This document shows, piece by piece, positions 17,333 to 44,008 of a stretch of DNA of 52,987 bases. How positions within the stretch are numbered: the first letter of the stretch is position 1; every line of letters starts with the position of its first letter. A program made the translations under genes and the position numbers. The notes under the pieces were generated by a model. It did no database searches. It had not been told where the DNA came from and worked only from the letters and a program-made list of their open reading frames with translations. Source of the DNA: a virus (Duplodnaviria; Caudoviricetes); the IMG/VR virus record IMGVR_UViG_3300018080_000028, positions 1-52,987 of that record, one strand, 5' to 3'.

Positions 17333-17379
17333 AATTTACCTTTCTCAACTTGACTACCTATAATCGTTATGATATGTAA

Positions 17380-19149: not shown

Positions 19150-21180
19150 CTACTGTACTACTTCAAACATAAGCTGGTCTGATTTGCGGCGCATTTTAAC
19201 GTAGTTGGGCGCAGCCGCCATGCTGTTTTTCATCACTGCGATGATGACGTTGCCGGTTGGGTACGGTTCACCCTGCTCGTTCAGCAACAGTTCATGAACG
19301 GTTTTCCCCCGTTTTTCTACAGGTTCGCGCAAATATTCGGGATTCATCGACACAAACAGGTTAAAGATGTCTCCCCTGCCCCAGTTCATGTCCTGGACAC
19401 CGATGAAGCGGCCACTGCCATCGCTCCGGGCTTTTTCTTCGGCGGCTTTATTGACCTGCCCGACGATCAGGGTGAACAGGTTGGCTTTGGCCGAGACCTG
19501 TTTGATATGTTTTTGTTTGGCTTCTTCTTCGTTGCGCGAAAAAGTGTCCAATCCGGGCAGGGCCTGGAGATAGTCCAGAACTGCAATACGGCAGGGCAAA
19601 CCCTGTTTGCGCAGGGTTGTGGCAGTGTCGGCAATATATTCCATTCTACGGCGCAATTCGGACAGTTCTCCTGATTCGTTGTTGACGAACTGTTGCTGGC
19701 CTTTTTGAGACTGGATCAGTTTTGCGAACTTGACTAATTTTTCCATCCGTTCGTTTTTGATTTCTTTCGCCATTGGCAACACCGGTTCCAAACCCTGTTG
19801 TTTGCGGTGAATGACGTGCATATGCAACAACATATCCATGTAGGTGATTTCGCCGCCGCTGAGTTGTTGGATGTCGCGCATAATCGATTCGGGAGGCAAC
19901 CATTCCGGTTTGTCGGAGATGGGGTACTCGTCGATAGACAGCCAGTACCGGATCATTTGTTCAATCATGGTAGTTTTGCCCACGCCGGTCCCGCCCACCA
20001 GAGCCGCCGCTTTACGCATTGACAGCACCTGACAGTACCCTCCCAGGTGCCACATTTCCGGGATCGGCCACACAATCGGCGCTCCGAACACGTCAAAATT
20101 TCCTTGCAGCGCCTTGAGCAATCCGCTAACCGCATCCGGCGTGCTCATAACAGGTTTGACGGCGGCGGGGTCGAGTGTGGGGGCGGCATTACTTTTTTTG
20201 TTGTTTTTATGCCACTCGGCCACACGTTTTTTACGGTAATCCAGCCATGGTTCCACTTTTAAAGCGGAAGCGATCTGATCCCATGCGTTTTCAATGTCCT
20301 GTATACCGCAGGAACACTGCGGTTTGCCGTAACCGCTCTCATCATAACTGATGCGGAAGCTGGGGTGTTCATCTTTGTGAGAGGGCAACGGACAATGCCA
20401 GCGTTCTACGCCTCCCTCTTTTTTAGCTGATGGTCCCAGCGCGGTTACAACCAACCCGATCCAGTCCTTCATGAATTGTTTGAAGTCTGGTTGCGGCGCG
20501 ATCGTAGGAGGGCCTGGCGAAGACGGTGGTACGGGATCACCGTTCCACAGGACTGCTTCCAGTTCCTCGACCTTTACGGTGTTAATCAGTGCCAGTTTAA
20601 AATCTCCGGGTTGAAACTGCACCTGTTGCCAGACAGAGTTGACATCGTTGCCGCTTTTTTCCACAATCGGTCCGGGAACCTGATAGACGGCCAGTTTTAT
20701 CCCGCTGGCCAGCAGCAGGTGGTGCAGCTTGGATGCTGCCCGGCATCCGGTCAGGTCACGGTCGGGATAATAACGCACCTGTTCAACGCCCAGTTCTTGC
20801 AGGTCGGCGACCAGCGTTTGCGGGACGCTGGTTTCACCATTCAACCAGCACAATACATTTCTGATTCCGGCGGCGATGAAGGTGAGCACGTCAGGTTCTC
20901 CGGCTGCGATATGTAAAGTGCCAAGGTGTTCTGCGATGATGGTTTTGATGTCGGGCAGGTGATAATAGGGATGTTTGCAGCTTTGAGGCCATGCGTATTT
21001 AAGTTTGTCCGATTTGGGATCGAACGATTTCCAGCGGGTGCCAACCTTTTCCCCGTCGAAATTAAAGATCGGGTAATTACATCCCGCCAGACCTTTATAT
21101 GCAGGAGTGACGATTTCCCAATCCAGTTCAATTGAGGCTTCCAGTATTCCGCGATCTTTACGGCTTTTAGGCGGGTTCAT
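19150..21180 (-). CDS. Primase-helicase (TOPRIM, CHC2-like Zn domain, DnaB-like ATPase)
   Basis: AGEPDVLT and YPDRDLTG (TOPRIM); CPLPSHKDEHPSF...CSC; Walker A GGTGVGKT and VLDYLQ. Start set at MNPP with a GGAGG SD. Confidence 0.85.
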   Translation of the reverse strand: MNPPKSRKDRGILEASIELDWEIVTPAYKGLAGCNYPIFNFDGEKVGTRWKSFDPKSDKLKYAWPQSCKHPYYHLPDIKTIIAEHLGTLHIAAGEPDVLTFIAAGIRNVLCWLNGETSVPQTLVADLQELGVEQVRYYPDRDLTGCRAASKLHHLLLASGIKLAVYQVPGPIVEKSGNDVNSVWQQVQFQPGDFKLALINTVKVEELEAVLWNGDPVPPSSPGPPTIAPQPDFKQFMKDWIGLVVTALGPSAKKEGGVERWHCPLPSHKDEHPSFRISYDESGYGKPQCSCGIQDIENAWDQIASALKVEPWLDYRKKRVAEWHKNNKKSNAAPTLDPAAVKPVMSTPDAVSGLLKALQGNFDVFGAPIVWPIPEMWHLGGYCQVLSMRKAAALVGGTGVGKTTMIEQMIRYWLSIDEYPISDKPEWLPPESIMRDIQQLSGGEITYMDMLLHMHVIHRKQQGLEPVLPMAKEIKNERMEKLVKFAKLIQSQKGQQQFVNNESGELSELRRRMEYIADTATTLRKQGLPCRIAVLDYLQALPGLDTFSRNEEEAKQKHIKQVSAKANLFTLIVGQVNKAAEEKARSDGSGRFIGVQDMNWGRGDIFNLFVSMNPEYLREPVEKRGKTVHELLLNEQGEPYPTGNVIIAVMKNSMAAAPNYVKMRRKSDQLMFEVVQ

Positions 21181-22165
21181 GTTTAACCTCCGCTTCCGGC
21201 AGCGCCGGGGGTGACGTGCGGTTGGCATCAATAGCTGCCATTAGTTCGGCAGTGTCTGGACATACCTCAGCCGCCGGTGGATTTTCCTTGAGAGCTGCCT
21301 GCCTGTGGTTCAACAGAGCGCGTGGGGTGAAAAAGTTAAAGCGCTCATCGCAGTAGTTGTAATAAGTTTTTACCATGTCCGGGGTGTCTCCGAGCTGGCA
21401 GAGTTCAGATGCCGTCTGTTGCACAAACTTTTTTTCAGCACTGGTCAGTTTGGTTTTCCAGACCAGATTAATTTCATCAGCAGTCATGTTCGGGTTAGTC
21501 CAGTTAAAACTGTGGGTGATGGCGTTTTTCATAGCGGTCATACTTTTTTTGTTTACGGAAACGCCTATAGATGTACTACTTTTAATACTTGTACTACTTT
21601 GGGTTGACTTAATAGAACTTACTCCGGGTTGTATGTTCGGCTTAGTAGAACTTACTCCGGGTTGTATGTTAGACTTAGTAGAACTTACTCTGATTGTGGA
21701 TGATCCGCGTTCCATATCCCATTTTATGGATGTTAATATGCTGGCTAACAGGGCATAGTCCGGCGACTCAAGCGTTTTAAGCAGCGTCAGGTGTGCTTTT
21801 AACACTTCCGGTTTTCGTCCAAAGTGAATGGTGGGGGTAAACTCGTTTTCGCCGACCTGTAAAATCCCGGTGATCTGGTACACATGGCGATTTCCGCGTG
21901 GTTCCCCCTGGATCCGTTTGTCTGGCGGCACGAGCAACAGCCCGTGGTTGTTTTTCCACCATTTGGTCGCGTCCCCGATCACTGATTTGCAGACTCCGAC
22001 CTCTTTGGCGAGCGTGTCCTGCGTCGGCCACGCTCGCAGGAACTGGTTGCAGTGCAGGTACAGGATGGTAAAAAACCATCCACGACATTGTTGGGCTTCA
22101 TCTCCACGACCGCCCAGCAGATGCCCGTGGGAGCGCAGGGTATACGAAATGGGTAATGATGGCAT
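21167..22165 (-). CDS. Replication initiator-like protein (winged HTH)
   Basis: AWPTQDTLAKEVGVCKSVI HTH_36-like motif; internal tandem repeats; directly upstream of the helicase, as lambda O. Confidence 0.7.
   Translation of the reverse strand: MPSLPISYTLRSHGHLLGGRGDEAQQCRGWFFTILYLHCNQFLRAWPTQDTLAKEVGVCKSVIGDATKWWKNNHGLLLVPPDKRIQGEPRGNRHVYQITGILQVGENEFTPTIHFGRKPEVLKAHLTLLKTLESPDYALLASILTSIKWDMERGSSTIRVSSTKSNIQPGVSSTKPNIQPGVSSIKSTQSSTSIKSSTSIGVSVNKKSMTAMKNAITHSFNWTNPNMTADEINLVWKTKLTSAEKKFVQQTASELCQLGDTPDMVKTYYNYCDERFNFFTPRALLNHRQAALKENPPAAEVCPDTAELMAAIDANRTSPPALPEAEVKHEPA
21571..21690. repeat. Iteron-like repeats, probable replication origin
   Basis: CTTARTAGAACTTACTCCGGGTTGTATGTT at 21608 and 21641, partial copy at 21674 (33-bp period); two GTACTACTTT copies at 21573 and 21591. 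Confidence 0.75.
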
Positions 22166-22166
22166 A

Positions 22167-22802
22167 TCAAATATCCTTACAATGTGCGCATAACAATTGA
22201 TGATTGACAAACTGGCAGGTCAGGTCAGGCTGGTGGATGAGATTCCCGCAATTGTCACAGGGGGTATCCAACAAAGACAGTATACCAATATCGGGCACCC
22301 ATCCATCGTCCCAGAATGCGTGTGTTATCCTGGATGCCAGTGCTGTATCGATTCTGTCCGGGTAAATCATCAGGTTAACGTTGTTGATGGTTATCCACTG
22401 GACATCGGTAGCTGTCGGGTTATAAAAATCGTGTTTGCCGGTGAATCCCCACATGCGGTAGGGGTGAACAAAACTCCACCGTGTATCAATGACCAGCACA
22501 ACCGGCAGCGGGCGGATTGGCAGGGGGCACAGGAACATGGGAGCCTCCACCAGCTCCACGTTATGCGACCGGGGACGTTTTGGCAACTGTTGTACAAATG
22601 AAACCAGCGTGGTCACAATGTCGGGGTGCATCTTATACCACGACATGCTGTAGAGCGTGCAGATGCCCCAGTCGGTCTGGACGGCTTGGGAAAAACAAAA
22701 CAGATTTCGCTTGCGCAGGTCGCGTTCGCGGCTTTTGCCGTAAAACTGGAGCATGGCGGTATCCGCGTTAAAACGTGTGATTTCAGCGTAACAGTCGCTC
22801 AT
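22167..22802 (-). CDS. Hypothetical protein with C-terminal Zn ribbon
   Basis: CDNC...CAHC; ATGA-coupled to its neighbour. Confidence 0.6.
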   Translation of the reverse strand: MSDCYAEITRFNADTAMLQFYGKSRERDLRKRNLFCFSQAVQTDWGICTLYSMSWYKMHPDIVTTLVSFVQQLPKRPRSHNVELVEAPMFLCPLPIRPLPVVLVIDTRWSFVHPYRMWGFTGKHDFYNPTATDVQWITINNVNLMIYPDRIDTALASRITHAFWDDGWVPDIGILSLLDTPCDNCGNLIHQPDLTCQFVNHQLLCAHCKDI

Positions 22803-23123: not shown

Positions 23124-24299
23124 CTAAAAGGGTGGTTCGCCTTCTGGTATTTTGGCGGTTTCCGGCGCTGGTTTTTTCTTAGCTTCGGCGATGCCGGATT
23201 CGATTTCTTCGCGCACGACATTCCATGCGTCGCGCCAACCGGTTTTGGTTTTGATATGGTCCATGTCGATTTGTTTGGCTTTCAGGCGGGTTTTGATGTC
23301 GGCGCGGGTTAGTCCGGCGCGTTTAGCCAGGTAACAAATAGCGCTGTCGATGGCTTCATTGGGGTTGGTCAATCCCTCAAATATTTTTTCCTCCATCATC
23401 TTTTTCCAGCGCCCGGTGAACCAGTATCCATCCGCTTTACCTTCTTTGACGCAGATCACCTTTTTAACAAAGGGGATGACGAACTGGTTGAGGGCCTGCC
23501 CGGTAGACGGCACTTCGTCGGGGATGGCATTCTGGTCGGGTGCGGGTTGCGCTGGTTGATTTGATTGTTGCGTTGCGGGGGCATGGTCTTCCATATCAAC
23601 CGTGAATCGCGCCGACAACATTGCGATTGATTTAGCAGCCTGCACCAGTGCTCGTTTGTCGGCCATTTTGCGGATGCTGTTGACGGAATCGAAAACTACC
23701 ATGGGATCGTTTATTTTGCCAGGCGGGGGTTGCGATGTAATGCTTTCGGTGTTGTAGGGGAAGTTAGCGCCGCAACCTCCGGTTTTTTCCCAGCAATACC
23801 ATCCCAGTTCAGCGTCGGGCGGATCGTTGGATCGCGGTTTACTGCGCCGAATATTTTCCGCCCCGCAGGTCGGGCAGGTGAGCAGCCGGTCGCGCCAGTA
23901 GTTGGGTTCGCGGCTGTTGCACACGCCGTTGCCACGCGCCACCACGGTGCTACTTGCTGTTTGCACCAGTTCACATTCGACCTCATAGGCAAAATAGGGT
24001 GCGTCGGGGGTATGGTCGCGGGTTACGTGTACCAGATTATACTTGGGAGCCAGTCCCATTAGAGTGAGAACAACCTCGGCACCGGCCTGGTAGAGCGTTG
24101 GTTTTTTGGTGTTGGGCACGATGCCGTAATGCACGTCTTCGGCGAACACGCGGTTGATCAGGTCGTCAATTGCGTCGCGCATGGTAACAGCGCGGTTCAC
24201 GGCCTGCATTGGCGTTTCGTCGTTGTGCGGTACGATGGTCAGGCAGGTGGCCGGTTCTTCTTCTTCAACTGCAACTTCAATTACTTGGGTATCATCCAT
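23124..24299 (-). CDS. Putative single-strand annealing/recombination protein with Zn-ribbon insertion
   Basis: HYGIVPNTKKPTLYQAGAE and NSIRKMADKRALVQA motifs of phage annealing proteins; CPTC...CWEKTGGC insertion; ends EGEPPF. Confidence 0.7.
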   Translation of the reverse strand: MDDTQVIEVAVEEEEPATCLTIVPHNDETPMQAVNRAVTMRDAIDDLINRVFAEDVHYGIVPNTKKPTLYQAGAEVVLTLMGLAPKYNLVHVTRDHTPDAPYFAYEVECELVQTASSTVVARGNGVCNSREPNYWRDRLLTCPTCGAENIRRSKPRSNDPPDAELGWYCWEKTGGCGANFPYNTESITSQPPPGKINDPMVVFDSVNSIRKMADKRALVQAAKSIAMLSARFTVDMEDHAPATQQSNQPAQPAPDQNAIPDEVPSTGQALNQFVIPFVKKVICVKEGKADGYWFTGRWKKMMEEKIFEGLTNPNEAIDSAICYLAKRAGLTRADIKTRLKAKQIDMDHIKTKTGWRDAWNVVREEIESGIAEAKKKPAPETAKIPEGEPPF

Positions 24300-24537
24300 T
24301 AGCTGATCCTCCGATCACTGTTTCCAATACCTGTCGTTTTTTGTCGGTCGGTAATTGCGGCAGGGGCTGGTCTGGGTACATTATTCTACGAATAGCCAGC
24401 AGCCCCAGCGTGATAATTTCGCGGTCCTTAAAACCGCGTGTGTGCAGTTCATCCAGCGTGTTTATGGCTTCGGTTTCCATATCCACGCCTTTTTTAAGTC
24501 GAGCCTGCACAAAACGGTTGCGGTCATTGTCAGTCAT
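24292..24537 (-). CDS. Ribbon-helix-helix-like protein downstream of parM
   Basis: RFVQARL strand followed by two helices; GGAGG SD. Confidence 0.5.
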   Translation of the reverse strand: MTDNDRNRFVQARLKKGVDMETEAINTLDELHTRGFKDREIITLGLLAIRRIMYPDQPLPQLPTDKKRQVLETVIGGSANG

Positions 24538-24580
24538 ATAATGCCTCCAGCATATAATGCAACCAGCGTTAATGCTGGTT
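24535..24580. repeat. 16-bp tandem repeat plus palindrome (candidate centromere/operator)
   Basis: CATATAATGCCTCCAG then CATATAATGCAACCAG; AACCAGC-GTTAAT-GCTGGTT inverted repeat. Confidence 0.55.
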
Positions 24581-25690
24581 TGCCAGTGCCATTCTTAATC
24601 CACCTGCTGCATTCATGTCCATTAGCCGGACACCCTTCAGGGTTTCGACAGCGCTGTGGTCAAAAATCAGGTCCCCGTACATTTGGCGCAGGTGTTTTTG
24701 AATGAGAGCTGCCCCGCCGCCAACCACAATCACGCTGCGGCAGGTACGCGATGCCTCATACCCTGTATCGATGATGACGTTGGCGACCCAGTTGGCGTAC
24801 AGGTTGCAACGTGACTCAAACATACGTCCCAGCTTGACCGTATTTTGTGGGCCGTACAACTGGCAGTCCTGTTTACACTTGTCACAGGGGTTGCGCGATT
24901 TCGATGGGAAACAGGTTGATTTACGTTTCAACCAGCGCCGCAAAACCTCATCGATGTCACACCAGTTAAAATGGTCAAACTGTGAGCTTTCTCGTTGCAG
25001 GTCGCGCAAAACTGGCAACAGGACGTGGGATTTGATTCCGCCGTCGGTGCTGGTTTGAAACGCTTCCGGGTTAAACTGCCCGTCCTGGATGATGAAATGA
25101 TCGCTGGTCAACACGCCAAGGTCAATCACCAGATTTCTGCCGCTGAGAGCATTGGTCGGCACCTGCTCGCCGTTTTCATTGAGCACAAAACAGGCGATTG
25201 CGCCCAATCCTTCGGGCCATACTGTTACCGACCTGTAGGTCCACGTGCGCGGGTTTTTGTCGCGCTTGAACTGAATATAGGCTCGGTGGTCCAGGAACTC
25301 TTTTTTGATTTTGTTTTTTCGTCGGGCGTATACTCCGGGCGGGCAGAATACGGTCAGGTCGATGGGTTCGGGCTTCACGTGGAATTTTTGCATAATTTTG
25401 GCGATGGTTACGTCGGTCAAAAACATATGTACGCCGTCGCCATAACGCAACAGCGACTGGTGCATTTCGACTCGGCGGCGCGAGATACGCATTACGTCGT
25501 CGCCTACTACAAACCTGCCTTCAGGGGTTTCAACCCATTCAAATGACAATTCACGTTTGCCCAGTCCGAGACTGTCTCCGGTGACACTGGCGCGGATACT
25601 GGGCAATTGGAAACCGTGGATACGGCCTGAATTGTCTCGGACAAACACGTTACACATCCCGTTTCCGGTGTCAGCGCTGCCGATAATCAT
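24569..25690 (-). CDS. parM: ParM/StbA-family actin-like ATPase
   Basis: Actin-fold motifs ADTGNG, VWPEGLGA, VIDLGVLTSD, VVGGGA and MNAAGG. Confidence 0.88.
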   Translation of the reverse strand: MIIGSADTGNGMCNVFVRDNSGRIHGFQLPSIRASVTGDSLGLGKRELSFEWVETPEGRFVVGDDVMRISRRRVEMHQSLLRYGDGVHMFLTDVTIAKIMQKFHVKPEPIDLTVFCPPGVYARRKNKIKKEFLDHRAYIQFKRDKNPRTWTYRSVTVWPEGLGAIACFVLNENGEQVPTNALSGRNLVIDLGVLTSDHFIIQDGQFNPEAFQTSTDGGIKSHVLLPVLRDLQRESSQFDHFNWCDIDEVLRRWLKRKSTCFPSKSRNPCDKCKQDCQLYGPQNTVKLGRMFESRCNLYANWVANVIIDTGYEASRTCRSVIVVGGGAALIQKHLRQMYGDLIFDHSAVETLKGVRLMDMNAAGGLRMALANQH

Positions 25691-25989
25691 TATAAACTCC
25701 TCATCTGGTCTAAAAAGCTGGTTGAAGTATCTGCGGTATGTTGTTCCAGGGAGGGTGTCTCTACAGGCGAAACATCCGGCGGAATCGGACGCGCTCCGTT
25801 CAGGTGTGCGCGTAAAAGCGGGAACAGTTCAAAAAGAACGGATGTATCACCTGTTTTGAGCGACAGGTACAAAATCAGCGCGTCTCTCAGGGTTGGTGCA
25901 AACAAGCGTGACTCCATCAAAGATTTGATTTCCGTATACAATTTGAGTTGTTCCGGTTTGTCGGTGTCTAACCAGAATTTAACCATCAT
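25690..25989 (-). CDS. ParR-like DNA-binding adaptor
   Basis: 99 aa from MMVKFWLD with a GGAGAGG SD; RHH-like N-terminus, flexible linker and terminal amphipathic helix SFLDQMRSL; TAATG-coupled to parM. Confidence 0.65.
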   Translation of the reverse strand: MMVKFWLDTDKPEQLKLYTEIKSLMESRLFAPTLRDALILYLSLKTGDTSVLFELFPLLRAHLNGARPIPPDVSPVETPSLEQHTADTSTSFLDQMRSL

Positions 25990-26008
25990 TCTCACAATAC
26001 CCTCTCCC

Positions 26009-26079
26009 AGAGTATATAGAGTATATACCTTATACATAATAACACGGGGTTTGGGGTTTGTCAAACAATCTGCTATAAT
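26009..26079. promoter_or_regulatory. Overlapping divergent promoters with 9-bp direct repeats
   Basis: Leftward TTGACA-17-TATTAT (26064-26036); rightward TTGGGG-17-TATAAT with extended TG; AGAGTATAT x2 at 26009-26026. Confidence 0.75.
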
Positions 26080-26115
26080 TAGTTGTGACAATTGGCACAT
26101 CTGGGAGGTTAGATT

Positions 26116-26742
26116 ATGGCAGCAATGCTGCAAATAGTTCCAAAAACTTTTGCCCAACACGACAAAATTGTGGCGCAGGGGATTACGGCCTTTGATGCCG
26201 GGATGGAGTCGTTGATTTATATTCTGGATCACGAGTTGTGGGATGGTGAGTATGACAGCGAGACCGCGTACCTGCGGGAGGTCGCTCTCCGCCACGAAAA
26301 ATCGCGTACATGGGTAATCCGGCAGGTGTCTATGGCGCGGGGCAAATCGACAGTGGGTAAAGAGTATGAGGACCTGCTGCTCGAATCGCACTGGCGCGAG
26401 TTGCAAAAATTTGACACGGAACACCTGACATCCATTGTGCAGACGGTGATCAACCGTTACGGAGGCATTACGGCCTCGCGCATCCGGCGCGTGGGTGAGG
26501 ATATGGCAATGCAGGCTCTGGGCAATTCGAGCGAGCTGGACATGGCCGACCAGGAAGCTCGTGAACGGCAGAGGGAACACATTGCCCAGTCTACCGGGTT
26601 CACCCGCGAGGTCATTACATCCTGGTGCAAGTTGTCGGAATTGCCGCTGCGCCAGTTGCGCCAGTTGCGCCAGCAGTCTGACGTGTACATTACAATATAT
26701 CGGCAAGTCCCAACACCTCCAGCGCCTCTTGCGCTGATTTAA
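26116..26742 (+). CDS. Lone + strand gene in the early arm, possible regulator/immunity protein
   Basis: GGGAGG SD, own promoter, helical 208 aa; no family recognised. Confidence 0.6.
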   Translation: MAAMLQIVPKTFAQHDKIVAQGITAFDAGMESLIYILDHELWDGEYDSETAYLREVALRHEKSRTWVIRQVSMARGKSTVGKEYEDLLLESHWRELQKFDTEHLTSIVQTVINRYGGITASRIRRVGEDMAMQALGNSSELDMADQEARERQREHIAQSTGFTREVITSWCKLSELPLRQLRQLRQQSDVYITIYRQVPTPPAPLALI

Positions 26743-26968
26743 CCACGGCAACCTGCCCGTTCCATTCGGCGTGCCACTGCTGCTGTCCTTCCGACAGTTT
26801 GCCGTATTTGCCTGATTTAACTTCCATCAGATAGTTCTGGCTCCTCCAGCCGACCAGCAGGTCGGGGATGTCCTTATCATCCAGTTGTGCGACGGTCGCT
26901 CCGATAGCTCGCAGGGTCTGGATGATGTCCCTTTCGGCGCTGTCTCGTTTGGGTGCTTTACGGGGCAT
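26690..26968 (-). CDS. VRR-NUC / Holliday junction resolvase-like PD-(D/E)xK nuclease
   Basis: IPDLLVG...LMEVKSG...LSEGQQQW. Confidence 0.85.
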   Translation of the reverse strand: MPRKAPKRDSAERDIIQTLRAIGATVAQLDDKDIPDLLVGWRSQNYLMEVKSGKYGKLSEGQQQWHAEWNGQVAVVKSAQEALEVLGLADIL

Positions 26969-26987
26969 TGTGATTATCCTTTCACAT

Positions 26988-27015
26988 AAAGGGGCACTGG
27001 TGTGCCCCCCTTTTT
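26988..27015. terminator. Hairpin, possible terminator
   Basis: AAAGGGGCAC-TGGT-GTGCCCCCTTTTT. Confidence 0.5.
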
Positions 27016-27027
27016 CGTCGGTGCGGC

Positions 27028-27408
27028 TTACAGCGGTTCTGGCATATACTCGCTGAGGTCGCGTTTGATGGTGGTCTTCTGGATGGTCCTGCGCGTGATT
27101 CCGGGCAGGGTTCCTTCGGCCAGCACCTTAGCCGCCTTTTTATAGGCGGTTTCGTCGAGTTGCACCTTGATCCACTGTCCCTGCCCGATGGCGTAAGGCA
27201 GGGCGACATCTGTATCGACCTGCACCTCATCGAATGTTTTGATGGTCAGCGCGGGGTGTGGTCGTGTTGTTTCCGGTTTTTCCGGGTCATACTGGTCCAT
27301 CGCCAAAACACGTAGCAGGTCTTCGGTTTCTAGCACACGTTCCCGGAAGTATTTTGCTCTTTCGCGGAAATAGGCCAGGTTCTGGATTGTGGCTTCAAAA
27401 TCGTTCAT
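27028..27408 (-). CDS. Hypothetical protein, weakly Gam/Gp157-like
   Basis: N-terminal coiled coil, then VQLDETAYKK...LPGIT. Confidence 0.45.
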   Translation of the reverse strand: MNDFEATIQNLAYFRERAKYFRERVLETEDLLRVLAMDQYDPEKPETTRPHPALTIKTFDEVQVDTDVALPYAIGQGQWIKVQLDETAYKKAAKVLAEGTLPGITRRTIQKTTIKRDLSEYMPEPL

Positions 27409-27778
27409 GGGTTTGCTCCTGTACATAATTGGTCCGGTAATTGATAGTGATAATGCAACGCAATTCGGGAAACTCGCCGTAACGTACTACCTCTTCCGGC
27501 GAAAAGTCCGACCGGTGTTTGATAGACAGTCCGGTCATAAATCGACCCTGGTCACTACCCACCATACGGCCCATGATGCCGCCAGCGCGAACGGCAGCTC
27601 GCATGGAGTCAAAAAAAGCCTGGCTGTTGTTGATCTCACTGAAGCACAAAAAGCTGATCGATCCGTTCCAGAAGACGGGGGAAACCCTGTCCTGCTGGAC
27701 ATGGGCCTGCACCTGTGCTTCAATCATGGTCGCCGACGAGTTTTTGCCGTAAGGGAATTCTATGGTTCTTTCAGTCAT
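27395..27778 (-). CDS. Hypothetical protein
   Basis: Tightly packed early operon. Confidence 0.55.
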   Translation of the reverse strand: MTERTIEFPYGKNSSATMIEAQVQAHVQQDRVSPVFWNGSISFLCFSEINNSQAFFDSMRAAVRAGGIMGRMVGSDQGRFMTGLSIKHRSDFSPEEVVRYGEFPELRCIITINYRTNYVQEQTHERF

Positions 27779-28121
27779 GGTCGCCGTCCCCCATGGTCTC
27801 GTTAAACCGGAAGTTTTCCCCGTTGATTTCGCGGATCAGGTCGTTAAGAATGGTGACAACTTTAGCCTCAAAGTAGGGGTGGGTGTATTTGCCGAACAGG
27901 GTGAAATTGGTATGCTCCTCCATGTCGTCGGTCGTCTCAAAGATGATGTAGGCTACCGTGTAGCGGTACGAGTATTTGCGGATTGTCATTTCGGCATCCA
28001 CCCACGGGTTGATATGTGGCAGAATCAGGTCGTCGATGTCGGCTTCCAGGAATTCGTCAAATTTAGGCGGCGGTTTATACTTCTGCCACTTCAGGGTGTC
28101 CAGGTCAACTTTGGTCAACAT
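27771..28121 (-). CDS. Hypothetical acidic protein
   Basis: GAGG SD; packed operon. Confidence 0.6.
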   Translation of the reverse strand: MLTKVDLDTLKWQKYKPPPKFDEFLEADIDDLILPHINPWVDAEMTIRKYSYRYTVAYIIFETTDDMEEHTNFTLFGKYTHPYFEAKVVTILNDLIREINGENFRFNETMGDGDHD

Positions 28122-28315
28122 AAGACACCTCTAGGGTGCACCCAGACAAATCGTTTACGGCGTTTGTGAAAGGACAGCAGTTTTGCGTCCGGGGAGGCTT
28201 TAGCCACGGTTTTTGCTGTAGCCACAATCAGTTTCCAGTCGCGGTCTGACAGGCGGTGGCCGGGCGTTTTTTTCCTGGCTCGCGCCAGCGTTTTAGCCGG
28301 TCGTTTATCGTACAT
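28115..28315 (-). CDS. Hypothetical basic protein
   Basis: GGAGG SD; packed operon. Confidence 0.55.
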   Translation of the reverse strand: MYDKRPAKTLARARKKTPGHRLSDRDWKLIVATAKTVAKASPDAKLLSFHKRRKRFVWVHPRGVLC

Positions 28316-28820
28316 CTCGTAATTCCTCCAAAATCCAGTCTAACAGGTCGGAAGCTGAATCAAACTCTCTCACCAGCGCCCACGGGTACTGGTTGTCCGG
28401 GTCTTCCGGGTCAGCGTTGTCAGAATAGAGTGAGATTGAATTGGAAGTCAGGCGCAACTGGTAGTCCACGAACCGGGGCAATTGCGCAAGCTGTTGTTGT
28501 AATTGTACAACATTAACGTCGGTTTTCATTGCAGCCGAACGGTAGAGGGGTTGGTAGTTGCGGCGGGACTGGTCAAAACGCATGAGCGTGTATGACATTC
28601 CCATATTATCGAGAGCGTCCGTAGTTGCGATTGTGACCTCTGTTAATCCGGTGTAATACAGTTCAACGTCCACGTCAGGGTGTTCCAGCGCCCATTTTCT
28701 GGTCGCGTGGTAAGCCTCAGCGTAGGCTTTTTGTCCGTGGGATTGGATGTCTGACAGCAGGTATTCGTCAACTGGCATATCGTGGCGGGCGCTGATGGTT
28801 CCGAGTTTAATGGTAGGCAT
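28305..28820 (-). CDS. Hypothetical protein with Rossmann-like N-terminal domain
   Basis: GAGGAGG SD; ARHDMPV and VELYYTGLT motifs. Confidence 0.6.
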   Translation of the reverse strand: MPTIKLGTISARHDMPVDEYLLSDIQSHGQKAYAEAYHATRKWALEHPDVDVELYYTGLTEVTIATTDALDNMGMSYTLMRFDQSRRNYQPLYRSAAMKTDVNVVQLQQQLAQLPRFVDYQLRLTSNSISLYSDNADPEDPDNQYPWALVREFDSASDLLDWILEELRDVR

Positions 28821-29136
28821 TAAATTCCTCCTCTATGCTGTCCGGGCGTTCGCCCAGCAGGAACATCCGGCGCGGGTAGGGGCGTGTCTGCAGACTAAAG
28901 CGGATGCCCAGGATGGTGAATCTGCGTCTGAGCGAGTAGATTGAGGCGATTTGATACAGCGCCTGCCACACGTCCCACGTAACGATACGGCGCGTGTTTT
29001 TCCAGCTGGCATACTGGTAGACAACCGTGAAGATGGGATAGGTGAACGTCCCGTCTTCGTTGTCGGTATGGGTGAGGGGCGGTTCGTCATCCATTATGTT
29101 ATCGTCAACGAAACCGCCGGGTGTCAGTTTAAACAT
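28807..29136 (-). CDS. Hypothetical protein
   Basis: Start MFKL with GAGG SD. Confidence 0.55.
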   Translation of the reverse strand: MFKLTPGGFVDDNIMDDEPPLTHTDNEDGTFTYPIFTVVYQYASWKNTRRIVTWDVWQALYQIASIYSLRRRFTILGIRFSLQTRPYPRRMFLLGERPDSIEEEFNAYH

Positions 29137-29506
29137 CCTCATCCTCCACCATGTCCTCCAGTTCCAGTATCCACCATGTACAGCGGCGGCCACAATCGTG
29201 ACACTGCGGGTTGTGTTCGTGTCCGGCGGTGGTATTGGTTGCGTTACAGTAGGGGCATGTCCATTTCCGGTCGGGGAAATGATAGGGCAGGGTCATGGAA
29301 AACTTGTAGGGCGGCATATCGTTGCTCTCGTAGTTTTCAACTTCCCACCTGATCATGTCGTTTTCCGGTTGGGGGATGTCCTCCGGGTTTGAGAGCCAGA
29401 TTCGGAATTCATATCCGTTGCTGGATTCAAACTGGCAACCATGTGCGCCGTCCGTATGGGATGATATGTAATTAAATTCCTCCAGGGCGGAATCAAATTC
29501 ATTCAT
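29129..29506 (-). CDS. Acidic Zn-ribbon protein
   Basis: CPYC...CHDC. Confidence 0.6.
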   Translation of the reverse strand: MNEFDSALEEFNYISSHTDGAHGCQFESSNGYEFRIWLSNPEDIPQPENDMIRWEVENYESNDMPPYKFSMTLPYHFPDRKWTCPYCNATNTTAGHEHNPQCHDCGRRCTWWILELEDMVEDEDV

Positions 29507-30044
29507 AGGACGTATTCTCCCGGTAGGTCAGAAATTCATCCAGTGCTTCGATGAGCTGCTGGCCGAGATTTATTGGCGGTTCGGAGGTTTGGCATTCGGC
29601 CAGATATTTTTCGCGGTCGGCTTTTTGGGCCAACAATTCGTCGATTATGTCGGCGATGTCGGCCTGCAACTTGCTGATGGCTTTTTCGTTGGGGCGGTTA
29701 ACGGAAATATAAGCGTTCGGCGAATATATGCCGCTGTGGTCCCCCAACAGTTTGACGTAAACTGCTATGCGCCACACCGGATAATCTTCCGGGTCTTCCG
29801 ACCTGTAGTTCTGGTTGAGGTCCACTGATACTGAGGCTGTCAAACTCACCAGTCCGTCGGGCGAAATAAACTCGTTTTTATCGAGTTCTCCGTGTGGGAT
29901 GCCGAGCCAGTCCAGCACCTGTTCCAGTTGTTGTCCTTCGAGCCTGTCCTGTATGGCCTGCATTTTAGCCAGTTTCGCCGCTTCTTCAGCGGCTTTTTGT
30001 TGGGCGGCTTTTTGCGCTTTGCGTAATTCAGCCTGCCATGTCAT
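29499..30044 (-). CDS. Hypothetical protein
   Basis: AAAGGA SD; coiled-coil ends. Confidence 0.65.
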   Translation of the reverse strand: MTWQAELRKAQKAAQQKAAEEAAKLAKMQAIQDRLEGQQLEQVLDWLGIPHGELDKNEFISPDGLVSLTASVSVDLNQNYRSEDPEDYPVWRIAVYVKLLGDHSGIYSPNAYISVNRPNEKAISKLQADIADIIDELLAQKADREKYLAECQTSEPPINLGQQLIEALDEFLTYRENTSYE

Positions 30045-31143: not shown

Positions 31144-31150
31144 GGTATTA

Positions 31151-31987
31151 TTACCTCCTGAGCAACAGTTGCAGAACGTCGGACATACATGATTGTTCGG
31201 TGTCACGTTTGAACACGGAACCGCAATCGCTTTCGATTCCCCATACGGACGATTCATCGATAATCCGGTGGTCGATTGTCAGAACGGCTATACAAACTAG
31301 GTGAAAAAGTCTGTCGTTCTTGAAATTCATGAGTCGTTTCATGTCCTGGCGTGCAATTGAACGGGCATACCGGCAAGCATTGGCCCAGGGCTGGTGTTTT
31401 TGTGAGAGTTTTTTATGCTTACTGGCGGGCATATCGTCAGTGATTCCGGCTTTGACGCACAACAGTTTGTAGTGGTAGTCACGGATGCTTTTGAAACTAT
31501 TGCATTCGTTATAGTACCAGTGGTCGTTGTATCGCGGTGTTGGCGGCACACGGATAGCTCCTACAATATCCGGTTTGCCTTTGACGATTTCGCCCAGGTA
31601 GTATGTGTCCGGGGAGGGGTCGATTTCCCAGCGGGTTCGGATTTTAACACCTGGTAGAGCCGCCAATAATTCAGGCGGCATTGGTATATCCGGTTCGGTG
31701 GGATTTTTGGCGGTTGTTGCAAATAAAAATCCGAGCAAACGAGTGCCCAGTGGATTCCAGTCCACAAAGGCGATGGGGGCTGCGCGTTCCGGGTGACGTA
31801 TCAGTGTATCGCGCACAGCGTAAAGACGATTCAGCAGGTGTCTGGCATATCCTGGTTCAGACAACACCAGAAATGAGTCTGCCGATTCAATGATTTCACG
31901 GGCGCGAAAAATTACGCGCGCCAGTGATCCGGTGTGCATCGGAAAACGTTGTCCTGTTAATGTTCGCAGGTAAAGTATACAGTCCAT
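31151..31987 (-). CDS. Hypothetical early protein
   Basis: AAGGAG SD; C-terminal SVWGIESD motif. Confidence 0.7.
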   Translation of the reverse strand: MDCILYLRTLTGQRFPMHTGSLARVIFRAREIIESADSFLVLSEPGYARHLLNRLYAVRDTLIRHPERAAPIAFVDWNPLGTRLLGFLFATTAKNPTEPDIPMPPELLAALPGVKIRTRWEIDPSPDTYYLGEIVKGKPDIVGAIRVPPTPRYNDHWYYNECNSFKSIRDYHYKLLCVKAGITDDMPASKHKKLSQKHQPWANACRYARSIARQDMKRLMNFKNDRLFHLVCIAVLTIDHRIIDESSVWGIESDCGSVFKRDTEQSCMSDVLQLLLRR

Positions 31988-31990
31988 AAT

Positions 31991-33745: not shown

Positions 33746-33774
33746 GGGAGCTACTGTTTTATGTCGAGATGGGA

Positions 33775-41305: not shown

Positions 41306-42292
41306 CTAATATGGCAAAAACAGGCTGTGAGATGCCTGTTCCATCTTTTTGTCTCCGCGTTTGTCGTAACGCATGGTGGTGTCTACCGAGGAATGACCGG
41401 CCATTCTTGCGACTGTGATAGCGTCGATCTCTTCTAGCATCAACGAAACAAACGTGTGACGAAGATCGTGGGGAGAAAATTGTTGGATTCCGGCTTGTTT
41501 TGCGCGATCTTTTGTCATGTTGTAAACGGATTGCGCCGATAACCTGCGCCATTCAATTCGCCCGCCGCGCCTCACAGGTAAAAACAGCGGACCGTTACCG
41601 GGCATCGGTTGAAACTCATCGTCACGCGCTTTGGAATGAATGATGGCTTCAGTGCGAAAACTTAACCAGTCCTTAAGCGGTTTTTCAGCGCCGCCAACAA
41701 AAGTTTTTCGTTCTTTGTTGCCTTTGCCGTGTTTGATCCGCAACTCGCCGGAACCTTCAGAATAATCTGCCCAGTTTAAGTTCACAAGCTCGTCGCGCCG
41801 CAACCCGCAGATGTACATGATGCCGAGCATGGCTGCGTCACGAACACCTTTGTGCTGGTTCTGGTCTGCTTTGCAGGTGTCCATCAGCGCTTTTATTTCA
41901 CCTATCTCCAGCTTGCGTCCGGCGGGCAACCTCTCGTCACGAACTCCCGTTACGGCGGCGAGCCTGTGATAACTCTCCGAGTTGGACTGGCCGAGTAGCC
42001 ACGCCTGTTTACAAACGCTGCGCAAAAAAGATAGTTCGCGGTTGATGGTCGCCGGAGCGTATCCCGCTTTTTCAAGCCATGCTCTCACCATGACGGCGTG
42101 CTGGTATTCTAACGATCCCCAATCAATTTCTTCCGGGTTGTTATTCCTGCCGCTGGTTAAAATGTCGGACAGTTTGATCAAACTGTCGCGGGCAATCCGC
42201 CGCGAGCTGGTTGACAGCGTAGCGAGATATACCAGATAGGCGTTGTCGCTGAGCGATTTTTCTGGCTTTTTAGTTAAATTGCTGGTACTCAT
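41306..42292 (-). CDS. Tyrosine recombinase (Cre/Xer-like, no arm-binding domain)
   Basis: Catalytic GLRRDE, HGKGNKER, PHDLRHT and MAGH...TTMRY; 328 aa. Confidence 0.95.
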   Translation of the reverse strand: MSTSNLTKKPEKSLSDNAYLVYLATLSTSSRRIARDSLIKLSDILTSGRNNNPEEIDWGSLEYQHAVMVRAWLEKAGYAPATINRELSFLRSVCKQAWLLGQSNSESYHRLAAVTGVRDERLPAGRKLEIGEIKALMDTCKADQNQHKGVRDAAMLGIMYICGLRRDELVNLNWADYSEGSGELRIKHGKGNKERKTFVGGAEKPLKDWLSFRTEAIIHSKARDDEFQPMPGNGPLFLPVRRGGRIEWRRLSAQSVYNMTKDRAKQAGIQQFSPHDLRHTFVSLMLEEIDAITVARMAGHSSVDTTMRYDKRGDKKMEQASHSLFLPY

Positions 42293-43804: not shown

Positions 43805-44008
43805 TTATTTAAAATGATTCGGCCAGAACTGTTTGAGAGACTCCATCGTAAAAAGATACCCGTTTGAACTGCGGCGGTAATGGACATATTCAATCATGGC
43901 GCATCTTTCTACTCGCTCGCGCACCGTGTTGGGATGAACTCCCAGAAGTTTCGCAGCTTCGACTGTCGTCAACACCTGCTGTAATGGGTAATTGCTGTAC
44001 ATATCCAT
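43805..44008 (-). CDS. Excisionase-like HTH protein
   Basis: VLTTVEAAKLLGVHPNTVR (HTH_17/MerR-like). Confidence 0.8.
   Translation of the reverse strand: MDMYSNYPLQQVLTTVEAAKLLGVHPNTVRERVERCAMIEYVHYRRSSNGYLFTMESLKQFWPNHFK

What the first reader, a model, noticed from the sequence alone, without database searches (positions are those of the whole stretch)
24292..26079. Actin-type partition locus with two adaptor-like genes suggests a phage-plasmid
Seen: promoter, 9-bp repeats, a ParR-like gene, parM, 16-bp repeats and a second RHH-like gene. The genome also has an iteron initiator and a Cre/Xer-like recombinase. Known: ParMRC normally uses one adaptor and one centromere, and P1 and N15 use ParA-type systems. 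Inference: an extrachromosomal prophage with a two-adaptor, two-site type II segregation system.
Basis: partly seen in the sequence, partly recalled or inferred. Interest (0 to 1): 0.7.

Follow-up and report, generated by a model that had tools for sequence, protein, structure and literature searches.

The report
Phage actin-like DNA segregation cassette
A complete 53-kb phage genome from sediment carries an actin-like filament protein next to one small DNA-binding adaptor, a known kind of system for moving DNA circles inside a cell; the proposed second adaptor and a plasmid lifestyle are not shown.

Summary
The sequence features are real. On the minus strand there is a near-consensus promoter, two exact 9-bp repeats, a 99-aa gene (orfA), a 373-aa actin-like gene (ALP), a 16-bp repeat (2.6 copies) and an 81-aa gene (orfA's supposed twin, orfC).

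orfA is a good ParR-type adaptor. It lies directly upstream of the ALP in most of 114 related loci. It models as a ribbon-helix-helix domain. Its conserved C-terminal helix is predicted to dock on the ALP (score 0.69, controls 0.00).

The order promoter/repeats, then adaptor, then actin matches AlpA/AlpC of the integrated Corynebacterium prophage CGP3. It does not match R1 ParMRC.

orfC shows no similarity to orfA, has only three distant relatives, models as all-helical, and overlaps the start of the next gene. Nothing found here shows it to be a second adaptor, though this is not excluded.

A plasmid-prophage lifestyle is plausible: the genome assembles as a circle, no host junction appears in contigs of four runs, and it has its own replication genes. 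It is unproven, because a Xer-like recombinase sits in a cluster headed by an Xis-like HTH gene. ParM-like plus RHH plus Xer plasmid prophages are already described in Bacillus.

Verdict: a new member of a known kind, probably in a Chloroflexota phage.

The parts
26036..26064 (-). Sigma-70-like promoter of the leftward operon (TTGACA, 17 nt, TATTAT, TG before the -10)
   Evidence: 11 of 12 matches. Four promoter-like sites were found in 24000-26400 against a mean of 1.9 in shuffles. This is a consensus match only; no transcript data were examined.
26009..26027 (.). Two exact tandem 9-bp repeats (minus strand TATATACTC TATATACTC), flanked by a degenerate TATA-rich stretch up to about 26034. Putative orfA binding site, serving as operator and centromere-like site.
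   Evidence: (I18). Relatives also show short tandem repeats upstream of the adaptor gene: 14 of 58 loci, against a mean of 2.5 in shuffles and 3 of 50 in a coding control. Binding is inferred, not tested.
25690..25989 (-). orfA, 99 aa: ParR/AlpA-type adaptor. It has an N-terminal ribbon-helix-helix domain, a short linker and a C-terminal ALP-docking helix (residues about 84-99, ...SFLDQMRSL).
   Evidence: Conserved synteny. Alignment A2. AF2 model with pLDDT 77. RHH structural matches. Predicted complex 0.69 against controls at 0.00, with the interface on residues 84-99. A GTG at 25995 is an alternative start.
24569..25690 (-). ALP, 373 aa: actin-like (ParM/Alp superfamily) ATPase, the presumed filament motor. 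It carries a lineage-specific Cys-rich insertion at about residues 260-280.
   Evidence: invariant D7 G9 N10 G11, E160, D190 G192 T195, G324 G325. (pCBH ParM 1e-5, Alp12 5e-5). (insertion). Strain variants in other samples: 3 of the 4 listed fall on third codon positions by my own arithmetic.
24535..24575 (.). 16-bp tandem repeat, 2.6 copies, each unit containing GCAT-n3-ATGC. It spans the ALP stop, the spacer and the orfC ribosome-binding site and start codon. Function unknown.
   Evidence: D2; score 54; 0.10 expected per genome. No significant RNA structure (z -0.45). No further copies in the genome.
24292..24537 (-). orfC, 81 aa: small fast-evolving protein of unknown function. Its stop overlaps the start of the 391-aa gene (ATGGATGA).
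   Evidence: It matches only itself in two database searches. A two-sequence profile found three further clusters. A positional homologue in L047 has a local alignment score reached by 4 of 2000 shuffles. AF2 gives three helices at pLDDT 75.
26084..26099 (.). Near-palindrome TGTGACAATTGGCACA between the divergent promoters and the 208-aa gene. It is conserved in the nearest relative L047. Putative operator.
   Evidence: Read directly: 15 shared bases, TGTGCCAATTGTCAC, on the other strand.
26116..26742 (+). 208-aa divergent gene (p208) with no family hit. It is conserved (59% identity over 121 aa) at the same position in L047. Possibly an HTH DNA-binding regulator.
   Evidence: no hits. (L047). 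(ParB-HTH-like structural leads with TM 0.38-0.41, below the bar). It is not homologous to the MerR-type divergent gene of the wider family.
23124..24299 (-). 391-aa gene (phrog_10048, unknown function, with a zinc-ribbon-like CxxC...C motif). It is the next gene of the operon and overlaps the orfC stop.
   Evidence: 1e-32. A 39%-identical homologue lies in another 51.5-kb viral contig whose 16-kb locus shows no ALP match.
19150..22210 (-). Replication block further down the same strand: a 347-aa gene holding 33-bp x 2.6 and 9-bp x 3.1 repeats (21572-21690), and a 693-aa primase/helicase.
   Evidence: TRF score 149, the highest in the window.
41306..42292 (-). Xer-like tyrosine recombinase, 328 aa. 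It could be an integrase or a multimer resolvase.
   Evidence: A 39%-identical homologue lies 4.6 kb from an orfA-ALP pair in another phage fragment, L054.
43805..44008 (-). 67-aa HTH_17/MerR-like ORF at the head of the recombinase gene cluster. Candidate excisionase or regulator.
   Evidence: HTH_17 E 1.7e-5, 25.4 bits, just under the 27-bit cut-off. Sequence read.

Best explanation
The locus is a single-adaptor, actin-type DNA segregation or positioning cassette of a temperate, probably Chloroflexota-infecting, tailed phage.

Proposed mechanism:
1. A strong promoter drives a long leftward operon.
2. Its first product, orfA, dimerises through an N-terminal ribbon-helix-helix domain. It binds the tandem 9-bp repeats that sit at about +2 to +19 of that promoter. 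This would repress the operon and mark the phage DNA.
3. The C-terminal amphipathic helix of orfA inserts into a cleft of the actin-like ATPase ALP, the second gene, whose start overlaps the orfA stop.
4. ALP filaments then move or separate circular phage genomes.

The order site, adaptor, actin is that of AlpS/AlpA/AlpC of prophage CGP3, not that of R1 parC-parM-parR.

orfC, the 16-bp repeat and the divergent 208-aa gene are lineage-specific neighbours of unknown role. I read orfC as the first gene of the following replication block, or as a local regulator, not as a second adaptor.

I cannot decide whether the cassette partitions a stable plasmid prophage or positions replicating genomes after infection or induction. 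My odds are about 45:40, with the remainder for other roles.

Shown: the ORFs, repeats and promoter match; conserved synteny; intact actin motifs. Predicted: the RHH fold and the orfA-ALP docking. Inferred: DNA binding at the repeats, filament formation, and the biological outcome.
For: ALP identity:
- PF17989 above its cut-off and phrog_691 'partition protein' at 1e-21.
- 83 homologues at E <= 0.001; the other 82 (the window's own protein is one of the 83) are 33-48% identical.
- Nucleotide-binding motifs are invariant in 29 aligned sequences.
- The family profile hits pCBH ParM (6ixw, 1.1e-5; 6izr, 1.8e-5) and Alp12 (4apw, 5.1e-5) among solved structures.

Adaptor identity:
- orfA relatives lie directly upstream of the ALP in 29 of 38 genome loci by tblastn, and in 33 of 38 by clustering.
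- In metagenome loci they are present in 58 of 67 loci that have at least 500 nt upstream.
- Alignment A2 shows a conserved N-terminal strand (FWLD) plus two helices, a variable linker, and a conserved C-terminal NFLxxxxxL motif.
- The AF2 model has pLDDT 77, above 85 for residues 1-60.
- Its best structural match is the RHH chain 2q2k_B (Z 4.3, rmsd 1.5, 42 of 44 residues). Other RHH proteins follow, including pB171 ParR 2jd3 (Z 3.2). pB171 ParR is also the top, non-significant, Foldseek row (E 4.1).

Docking: the predicted complex scored ipSAE 0.69, 0.69 and 0.68, with the best of 3 controls at 0.00. That mark was reached by 58 of 80 solved complexes and 2 of 110 mismatched pairs. The runs agree in at least 78% of their contacts. 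Partner pLDDT is at least 67. The interface is orfA 84-99 against ALP 158-183, 201-208 and 367-371.

Site: the repeats are beyond chance. Short tandem repeats are enriched upstream of the adaptor genes of relatives: 14 of 58 loci, against a mean of 2.5 and a maximum of 8 in 30 shuffles, and 3 of 50 in a coding control.

Layout precedent: in CGP3 the adaptor gene alpA precedes alpC, AlpA binds repeats near the operon promoter, and both are early genes needed for efficient replication of phage DNA (PMC4446434, abstract and passages).

Phage and replicon context:
- The record is a complete virus record. It encodes a terminase, a tape measure protein and a primase/helicase.
- The first 123 nt equal the last 123 nt.
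- Contigs of 4 runs from 4 studies show no joints and no paired loose ends at one place across 24300-44299.
Against: - The centromere-like array is tiny: two exact copies. Its sequence is not conserved in the nearest relative L047, which has other TATA-rich short repeats there.
- RHH structural scores are low (Z <= 4.3), as expected for a 45-residue domain, and Foldseek found nothing significant.
- The complex prediction can pass by likeness to a solved ParM-ParR peptide complex (recalled, not checked here). My own alignments were used, so the calibration holds only roughly.
- The adaptor-ALP family also sits among ordinary cellular genes on large MAG contigs, in several copies per genome. The family is therefore not by itself a plasmid marker.
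- I found no relative in 50,697 phage records. In 72,556 plasmid records there were only two 27.6%-identical partial hits. Function is thus extrapolated from very distant relatives.
- orfC is conserved next to the ALP in the one close relative with context. It carries a C-terminal hydrophobic (V/Y)L(E/D)x(V/L) stretch. I compared this with the adaptor motif only by eye, so a role with the ALP is not excluded.
Confidence: 0.7

Rival explanations
1. One reading: an extrachromosomal prophage whose type II system uses two RHH adaptors and two centromere-like sites. orfA would act on the 9-bp repeats and orfC on the 16-bp repeats.
For: - Both repeats are real and beyond chance.
- orfC lies in the canonical parR position, downstream of the motor.
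- A positional homologue follows the ALP in the nearest relative L047. Its alignment score was reached by 4 of 2000 shuffles.
- The four-member orfC alignment shows a short N-terminal IQGRF stretch followed by two predicted helical segments, and a hydrophobic C-terminal stretch.
- Language-model neighbours include RHH clusters at 0.88-0.89, which are leads only.
- No host junction was seen.
Against: - orfC is absent from the module in 0 of 38 plus 0 of 76 related loci by tblastn. Downstream ORFs there are heterogeneous.
- orfC has no similarity to orfA or its family.
- AF2 gives an all-helical model, and no RHH entry appears among the 50 structural rows shown.
- orfC overlaps the start of the next gene in both elements, and L047 keeps the whole gene order, so the linkage may be synteny only.
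- The second and third repeat units carry the orfC ribosome-binding site and start codon, which suits local regulation as well as a centromere.
Confidence: 0.1
2. Integrative temperate phage with an AlpAC-like role. The phage integrates through its Xer-like recombinase. The orfA-ALP cassette is an early function that positions excised or infecting circular genomes for efficient replication. It is not a plasmid-partition system.
For: - The order promoter/repeats, adaptor, actin is the same as in CGP3, an integrated prophage whose AlpA and AlpC are early genes needed for efficient DNA replication.
- The cassette heads the same-strand array that continues into replication genes: the 391-aa gene, the repeat-bearing 347-aa gene and the primase/helicase.
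- A tyrosine recombinase is present, with a 67-aa HTH_17-like (excisionase-type) ORF at the head of its cluster.
- The published caution that a partition system in a phage does not prove a plasmid prophage (PMC8026635, passage read).
Against: - No integration junction appears in contigs of 4 runs over a stretch that covers the recombinase and its flanks. Contigs drop rare forms, so this is weak.
- There is no tRNA gene in the phage, and no convincing attB-like match in 401 Anaerolineae-class genomes. The matches were short and marginal; the recurrent 22-23-nt match, found in 3 genomes (a fourth held a longer, 90%-identical match at the same place), lies in the coding sequence of the 242-aa gene.
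- Known plasmid prophages also carry Xer-type recombinases.
- The HTH_17 hit is below its cut-off.
Confidence: 0.4
3. orfA is only a Cro/Arc-like early transcription repressor at a divergent genetic switch with the 208-aa gene. The ALP would act independently of it, for example on host cell shape or on virion assembly sites.
For: - orfA is the first gene after a promoter that diverges from the 208-aa gene. A conserved palindrome lies between them.
- RHH repressors at phage switches are established knowledge (Arc and Mnt of P22, recalled).
Against: - The adaptor-ALP pairing is conserved across more than 90 loci that do not share the switch partner.
- The conserved C-terminal helix has no role in a plain repressor, and it is predicted to dock on the ALP.
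Confidence: 0.07

Closest known systems
AlpA/AlpC/alpS of Corynebacterium glutamicum prophage CGP3 (PMC4446434; PMC5539076 seen in a search listing only)
   Same: The adaptor gene lies upstream of, and is co-transcribed with, the actin-like gene. Repeats sit near the operon promoter. The system is phage-borne and placed with early or replication functions. The proposed action is to link circular phage DNA to actin-like filaments.
   Different: Sequence relatedness to AlpC and AlpA was not tested, because no sequence was at hand. The host phylum differs. Here the repeats start at about +2, whereas alpS is reported 110 bp downstream of the transcription start site. CGP3 is known to be integrated; the state of this phage is unknown.
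ParMRC type II plasmid partition (R1, pB171, pSK41)
   Same: An actin-fold motor. An RHH adaptor whose C-terminal helix is predicted to bind the motor. Tandem repeats overlapping the promoter, implying autoregulation. RHH structural matches include pB171 ParR (2jd3) and 2q2k, which I recall to be the pSK41 ParR-centromere complex.
   Different: The gene order is adaptor then motor, not motor then adaptor. There are only two exact repeat copies; I recall ten 11-bp iterons in R1 parC. The ALP is only remotely related: a profile E of 1e-5 to pCBH ParM, and 27.6% identity over half its length to the nearest plasmid ParM/StbA.
[quoted passage not shown]
   Same: Siphovirus-type genomes of about 50 kb, headful-type packaging, a ParM-like protein next to a small RHH protein, and one or two Xer-family recombinases. 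This is the combination seen here and in the related fragment L054.
   Different: Different host phylum and no detectable sequence relatedness: there was no tblastn match in 50,697 phage records. Plasmid maintenance is documented for some of those phages and unknown here.
TubZRC with its fourth component TubY of Clostridium phage c-st (recalled)
   Same: A phage-borne cytoskeletal partition system with an extra small modulator protein. This is the only precedent I know for a third protein such as orfC.
   Different: The motor is tubulin-like, not actin-like. No relatedness was tested.

Membership tests
ParM/Alp actin-like ATPase superfamily | Actin-fold ATPase with phosphate-1, phosphate-2 and adenosine motifs, and a match to ALP/ParM models | tested here: met
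   PF17989 at 27.5 bits against a 26.3 cut-off, and phrog_691 at 1e-21. D7/G9/N10/G11, D190/G192/T195 and G324/G325 are invariant in 29 sequences. Profile hits to pCBH ParM and Alp12.
ParMRC type II partition system | Small RHH DNA-binding adaptor encoded beside the motor | tested here: met
   AF2 model of orfA. Best VIA match is the RHH chain 2q2k_B: Z 4.3, rmsd 1.5, 42 of 44 residues. Many other RHH chains, including pB171 ParR, appear among the 50 rows. Caveat: all Z values are under 5, and the Foldseek result was not significant at E 4.1.
ParMRC type II partition system | The adaptor's C-terminal peptide binds the motor | tested here: met
   By prediction only: ipSAE 0.69 against a best control of 0.00, with the interface on orfA 84-99. 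The C-terminal motif is conserved in 27 sequences. The pass may owe something to likeness to a solved ParM-ParR complex.
ParMRC type II partition system | Centromere of multiple tandem repeats at the operon promoter | tested here: inconclusive
   Two exact 9-bp copies just downstream of the -10 hexamer, beyond chance. Repeats are enriched upstream of adaptor genes in relatives, 14 of 58 loci. Binding was not tested.
ParMRC type II partition system | Gene order centromere, motor, adaptor | tested here: not met
   The adaptor precedes the motor here and in the relatives.
ParMRC type II partition system | Stabilises an otherwise unstable replicon | not testable with these tools
   This needs a plasmid-loss assay.
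AlpACS (CGP3-type phage actin system) | Adaptor gene upstream of, and co-transcribed with, the actin-like gene, with repeats in the promoter region | tested here: met
   TAATG overlap of orfA and the ALP. Promoter and repeats upstream.
AlpACS (CGP3-type phage actin system) | Sequence homology to AlpC and AlpA | not tested
Phage-plasmid (plasmid prophage) | Phage structural and packaging genes together with plasmid-type replication and partition functions on one replicon | tested here: met
   Terminase, tape measure protein, primase/helicase, a repeat-bearing 347-aa gene and the ALP cassette. The record is complete.
Phage-plasmid (plasmid prophage) | The prophage is maintained extrachromosomally in lysogens | not testable with these tools
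   The only data are a circular assembly overlap and the absence of joints or paired loose ends in contigs of 4 runs. Contigs cannot show absence.
Ribbon-helix-helix proteins (for orfC) | N-terminal strand followed by two helices, with matches to RHH models or structures | tested here: inconclusive
   No Pfam, PHROG or NCBIfam hit. The single-sequence AF2 model is all-helical. No RHH entry appears among the 50 VIA rows. The profile against the orfA family gives 1.2% probability. The four-member alignment pattern is compatible with RHH by eye only.

The most novel reading that the evidence does not exclude
The window and its nearest relative carry an elaborated, four-gene actin-type system: a divergent 208-aa DNA-binding protein, the orfA adaptor, an ALP with a Cys4 insertion, and orfC. 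In this reading orfC is a genuine third component. It would be either a second adaptor or a filament modulator (in the way TubY acts on TubZ) that works at the 16-bp repeats at the ALP-orfC junction. It would couple segregation to the downstream replication genes of a Chloroflexota plasmid prophage.
Probability: 0.12. Interest if true: 0.65.

Novelty: new member of a known kind. Interest (0 to 1): 0.35.

Why it matters
Actin-like segregation systems on phages are known from only a few cultured Firmicutes and Actinobacteria. This extends them to an uncultured, probably Chloroflexota-infecting phage found in sediment and seawater runs from four studies.

The adaptor-first layout of CGP3 turns out to be the rule for a whole ALP family, covering more than 90 loci.

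The cassette gives a concrete, testable adaptor-motor pair with a predicted docking helix.

It does not reveal a new principle. The more unusual lead lies outside the finding: Anaerolineae genomes carry several copies each of a MerR-like / RHH adaptor / ALP triad among ordinary cellular genes.

Tried and rejected
- Close relatives were sought in 50,697 phage records by DNA and by protein and none was found. IMG/VR scans with the ALP, the ALP alignment and the 208-aa protein found none. These collections may leave out the window's own record.
- orfC as a paralogue of orfA was rejected.
- orfC as a relative of the roughly 90-aa gene that sits between the adaptor and the ALP in 5 loci: not significant.
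- BLASTP of orfC against the L047 ORF found nothing. Only a Smith-Waterman shuffle test and a profile search linked them.
- The 208-aa gene as a homologue of the MerR-type divergent gene of the wider family was rejected.
- PDB sequence searches with the orfA family, orfC, the orfC family, the 391-aa protein and the 208-aa protein gave nothing usable.
- The 16-bp repeat as an RNA structure: z -0.45, rejected. No Rfam family is present in the window.
- Integration was sought in three ways. There is no tRNA gene. The recombinase region compared with 401 Anaerolineae-class genomes gave only short marginal matches, and the recurrent 22-23-nt match lies in coding sequence and was judged chance. Terminase relatives in 7 of 301 genomes (best 49% identity, on a short locus) carried no match to the ALP or the 391-aa protein, so they say nothing about integration.
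- Loose ends shared by three runs at 36779 and 40132 were considered as att junctions. I rejected this because they lie 3.3 kb apart and face each other, which is the signature of an alternative packaging module in a co-occurring strain.
- The first, uncontrolled repeat scan of upstream regions was replaced by the controlled one.
- One literature search for ParM in Chloroflexota phages returned no relevant title among the 10 papers listed of 44 (listing only).

Full report
WHAT THE WINDOW IS. The window is a whole IMG/VR virus record of 52,987 bases, classed as having direct terminal repeats and rated 100% complete. Its first 123 nt equal its last 123 nt. The same ALP protein also occurs on a 53,005-nt contig. 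That length equals the 52,864-nt unique length plus 141, so I read both overlaps as circular-assembly overlaps; this is inference. The genome encodes:
- a PBSX-type large terminase, a small terminase and a tape measure protein;
- a primase/helicase, several DNA methyltransferases and an exonuclease;
- a tyrosine recombinase.
Most other genes have no family. It has no near relative among 50,697 deposited phage genomes.

THE OBSERVATION. All listed features exist, on the minus strand.
- The promoter is TTGACA-17-TATTAT with TG, at 26064..26036.
- Two exact 9-bp repeats lie at 26009-26027, starting 8 nt after the -10 hexamer.
- orfA (99 aa) is at 25690..25989. Its stop overlaps the start of the 373-aa ALP (24569..25690) as TAATG.
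- A 16-bp repeat of 2.6 copies at 24535-24575 covers the ALP stop, the 31-nt spacer and the GGAGG/ATG of orfC (24292..24537, 81 aa).
- The orfC stop overlaps the start of a 391-aa gene as ATGGATGA.
Shuffling shows that both repeats exceed chance. Repeats with score >=38 numbered 9 observed against a mean of 1.81. Repeats with score >=54 numbered 2 observed against 0.10, and 10 of 100 shuffles had any. Neither motif recurs as a cluster elsewhere.

THE MOTOR. The 373-aa protein passes Pfam ALP_N (27.5 against 26.3 bits) and matches PHROG 691 'partition protein' at 1e-21.
- It has 83 homologues at E <= 0.001; the other 82 (one of the 83 is the window's own protein) are 33-48% identical. The actin nucleotide-binding motifs are invariant in 29 aligned members.
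- A family profile reaches pCBH ParM (1.1e-5, 1.8e-5) and Alp12 (5.1e-5) among solved structures.
- The family is remote from sequenced plasmids. I found two partial hits at 27.6% identity, both annotated ParM/StbA.
- By record titles, 33 of 38 genome loci that encode it are Chloroflexota, mostly Anaerolineae. A terminase relative at 49% identity also lies in an Anaerolineae-class genome. I therefore take Chloroflexota as the likely host. This is inference, because binning of mobile DNA is error-prone.

THE ADAPTOR. orfA has no family hit, but it has relatives directly upstream of the ALP gene.
- They are present in 29 of 38 genome loci by tblastn and 33 of 38 by clustering.
- They are present in 58 of 67 metagenome loci that have enough upstream sequence.
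- The 27-sequence alignment shows a basic N-terminus, a strand (FWLD), two helices, a variable coiled-coil and acidic linker, and a conserved C-terminal NFLxxxxxL helix. The phage copy lacks most of the linker.
- AF2 models residues 1-60 at pLDDT 85-95.
- The exhaustive structural search puts the RHH chain 2q2k_B first (Z 4.3, rmsd 1.5, 42 of 44 residues). I recall this entry to be pSK41 ParR on centromere DNA. Many other RHH proteins follow, including pB171 ParR. The scores are low, and Foldseek found nothing significant.
- The complex prediction supports binding. The score was 0.69 in two runs and 0.68 in the third, with the best of three controls at 0.00. That mark was reached by 58 of 80 solved complexes and 2 of 110 mismatched pairs. 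The runs agree in at least 78% of contacts, and partner pLDDT is at least 67. The interface is exactly the conserved C-terminal helix, residues 84-99.
- A ParM-ParR peptide complex has been solved (recalled), so part of this pass may be likeness. My own alignments were used.

THE SITE. Two exact 9-bp copies make a small array. Short tandem repeats are nevertheless a recurrent feature upstream of this family's adaptor genes. They occur in 14 of 58 distinct loci, against a mean of 2.5 (maximum 8) in 30 shuffles and 3 of 50 in a coding control. I infer that orfA binds here, which would both repress the operon and mark the DNA. Binding is not shown.

THE LAYOUT. The order site, adaptor, motor is not that of R1 parC-parM-parR. 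It is the layout reported for alpS-alpA-alpC of the integrated C. glutamicum prophage CGP3. In CGP3 the adaptor binds repeats near the operon promoter, links circular phage DNA to AlpC filaments, and both genes are early and needed for efficient replication. The authors themselves note the inverted gene order (PMC4446434, abstract and passages).

THE SECOND SMALL GENE. orfC found only itself in a 5.8-billion-protein search and in an exhaustive 1.84-billion-representative search.
- It shows no similarity to orfA or its family.
- The single-sequence AF2 model (pLDDT 75) has three helices and no strand. Structural matches are non-descript, with Z <= 5 and no RHH entry among the 50 rows. Language-model neighbours are unnamed viral proteins at 0.91, with RHH clusters only at 0.88-0.89.
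- In the wider ALP family nothing is conserved downstream. tblastn with orfC hit 0 of 38 and 0 of 76 loci, and the 50 small ORFs found downstream in 76 loci are heterogeneous.
- The nearest relative is a 2.3-kb contig, L047, whose ALP is 48% identical. It keeps the whole order: a 208-aa divergent gene (59% identical), orfA, the ALP, then a 73-aa ORF 15 nt after the ALP stop whose own stop overlaps the next start.
- That ORF aligns with orfC at a score reached by 4 of 2000 shuffles. A two-sequence profile recovered two more 74-aa proteins.
orfC is therefore a real, fast-evolving gene of a small lineage. Because L047 keeps the entire gene order, its position next to the ALP may be plain synteny. 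By eye, the four-member alignment could fit a strand plus two helices, with a hydrophobic C-terminal stretch.

THE 16-BP REPEAT. It is real, but its role is open. It carries the orfC ribosome-binding site and start codon. Each unit contains a short inverted repeat, GCAT-n3-ATGC. It has no significant RNA fold (z -0.45) and does not occur elsewhere. L047 has only a 6-nt direct repeat 16 nt apart at the same junction, which I do not consider significant.

LIFESTYLE.
In favour of a plasmid prophage:
- the circular assembly;
- the phage's own replication genes, including a 347-aa gene that holds the strongest repeat in the genome, 33 bp x 2.6; I recall that lambda's origin lies inside its O gene in the same way;
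- the segregation cassette;
- the absence of any joint, or of paired loose ends at one place, over 24300-44299 in contigs of four runs from four studies. One run may be the source, at depth about 46-48. The other three, at depth 2-6, carry a strain roughly 1% different.
Against it:
- contigs cannot show absence;
- the recombinase is Xer-like over its full length, which fits either an integrase or a resolvase;
- a 67-aa HTH_17-like ORF heads its gene cluster, although the hit is below cut-off;
- CGP3 shows that the same cassette serves an integrated prophage.
The literature already warns that a partition system does not prove a plasmid prophage. It also lists Bacillus plasmid prophages with exactly this ParM-like + RHH + Xer combination (PMC8026635, passages). 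A related phage fragment, L054, links two tyrosine recombinases, an orfA-ALP pair and a tape measure gene within 10 kb. One of those recombinases is 39% identical to the window's. I found no attB-like match and no tRNA gene. I put a plasmid prophage at about 0.45 and an integrative phage with an AlpAC-like role at about 0.40.

COMPARISON AND NOVELTY.
- Functionally this works like ParMRC or AlpACS.
- As to membership, it is an ALP-superfamily member with an RHH adaptor. It fails the ParMRC gene-order feature and matches the AlpACS layout. Homology to AlpA and AlpC was not tested.
- It is a new member of a known kind: a new, remote ALP family in a phage of an uncultured lineage.
- One search found no paper on ParM-type systems in Chloroflexota phages (listing only).
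- The two-adaptor reading stays at about 0.1.

SIDE OBSERVATIONS. These are given under Noticed in passing. The most notable is the multi-copy MerR-like / RHH adaptor / ALP triad in Anaerolineae genomes.

Noticed in passing
L002-L039 (for example L017:2985-6100, L023:3881-6080); genomes G001-G004: Chloroflexota (mostly Anaerolineae) MAGs carry a conserved triad: a divergent MerR_1-HTH plus coiled-coil gene of about 184 aa, an RHH adaptor of about 160 aa, and an ALP. It is present in 31 of 38 loci. Four MAGs of 6.7-8.2 Mb gave 4-12 ALP matches each. On large contigs the flanks are ordinary cellular genes. In 4 loci a large ORF family lies nearby whose one scanned member is PrimPol. What a multi-copy chromosomal actin/adaptor triad does in these filamentous bacteria is unexplained.
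   Followed up: partly
window 24850-24910 (ALP residues about 260-280): The phage ALP and its nearest relatives share an insertion of about 18 residues with four cysteines (C-x10-11-C-x2-C-x3-C). It is complete in P0003/L047 and partial in P0043. It is absent from the other aligned family members shown. It may be a zinc knuckle inside the actin fold.
   Followed up: no
window 26084-26099 and L047:381-396: A 15-16-bp near-palindrome (TGTGCCAATTGTCAC on the minus strand) lies between the 208-aa gene and the divergent promoters. It is conserved in the nearest relative although the surrounding spacer is not. It is probably an operator, perhaps for the 208-aa protein.
   Followed up: no
window 36779-40132, and 32885-33710: Contigs of three other runs break off at 36779 and resume at 40132, with the same unlike sequence in all three. 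One run does likewise at 32885/33710. The same runs also hold contigs like the window across these stretches. A co-occurring strain seems to carry a different packaging module: intergenic region, small terminase and large terminase.
   Followed up: partly
window 36393: All three non-source runs carry a 12-nt insertion (one more unit of a GT-rich repeat) behind 36393, inside the 293-aa ORF region that TRF marks as an 18-bp repeat at 36387-36427.
   Followed up: no
window 40227-44008, minus strand: An odd gene cluster sits between the terminase and the next large plus-strand gene. It holds a 67-aa HTH_17-like ORF, a 242-aa unknown, an HslV-family peptidase-like protein (phrog_1040), the Xer-like recombinase, and a DUF6610 + GNAT acetyltransferase protein.
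   Followed up: partly
window 13284-18558: A dense block of DNA-modification genes lies here: at least three DNA methyltransferase-like genes plus a PAPS-reductase-like protein (phrog_424), next to a DNA polymerase exonuclease subunit-like gene. This suggests heavy anti-restriction DNA modification.
   Followed up: no
L004:4705-4992, L002:1297-1572, L003:2048-2272, L005:4703-4975, L008:1461-1703: Five loci carry an extra conserved gene of about 90 aa, with no Pfam hit for the two members scanned, inserted between the adaptor gene and the ALP gene. It is not detectably related to orfC.
   Followed up: partly
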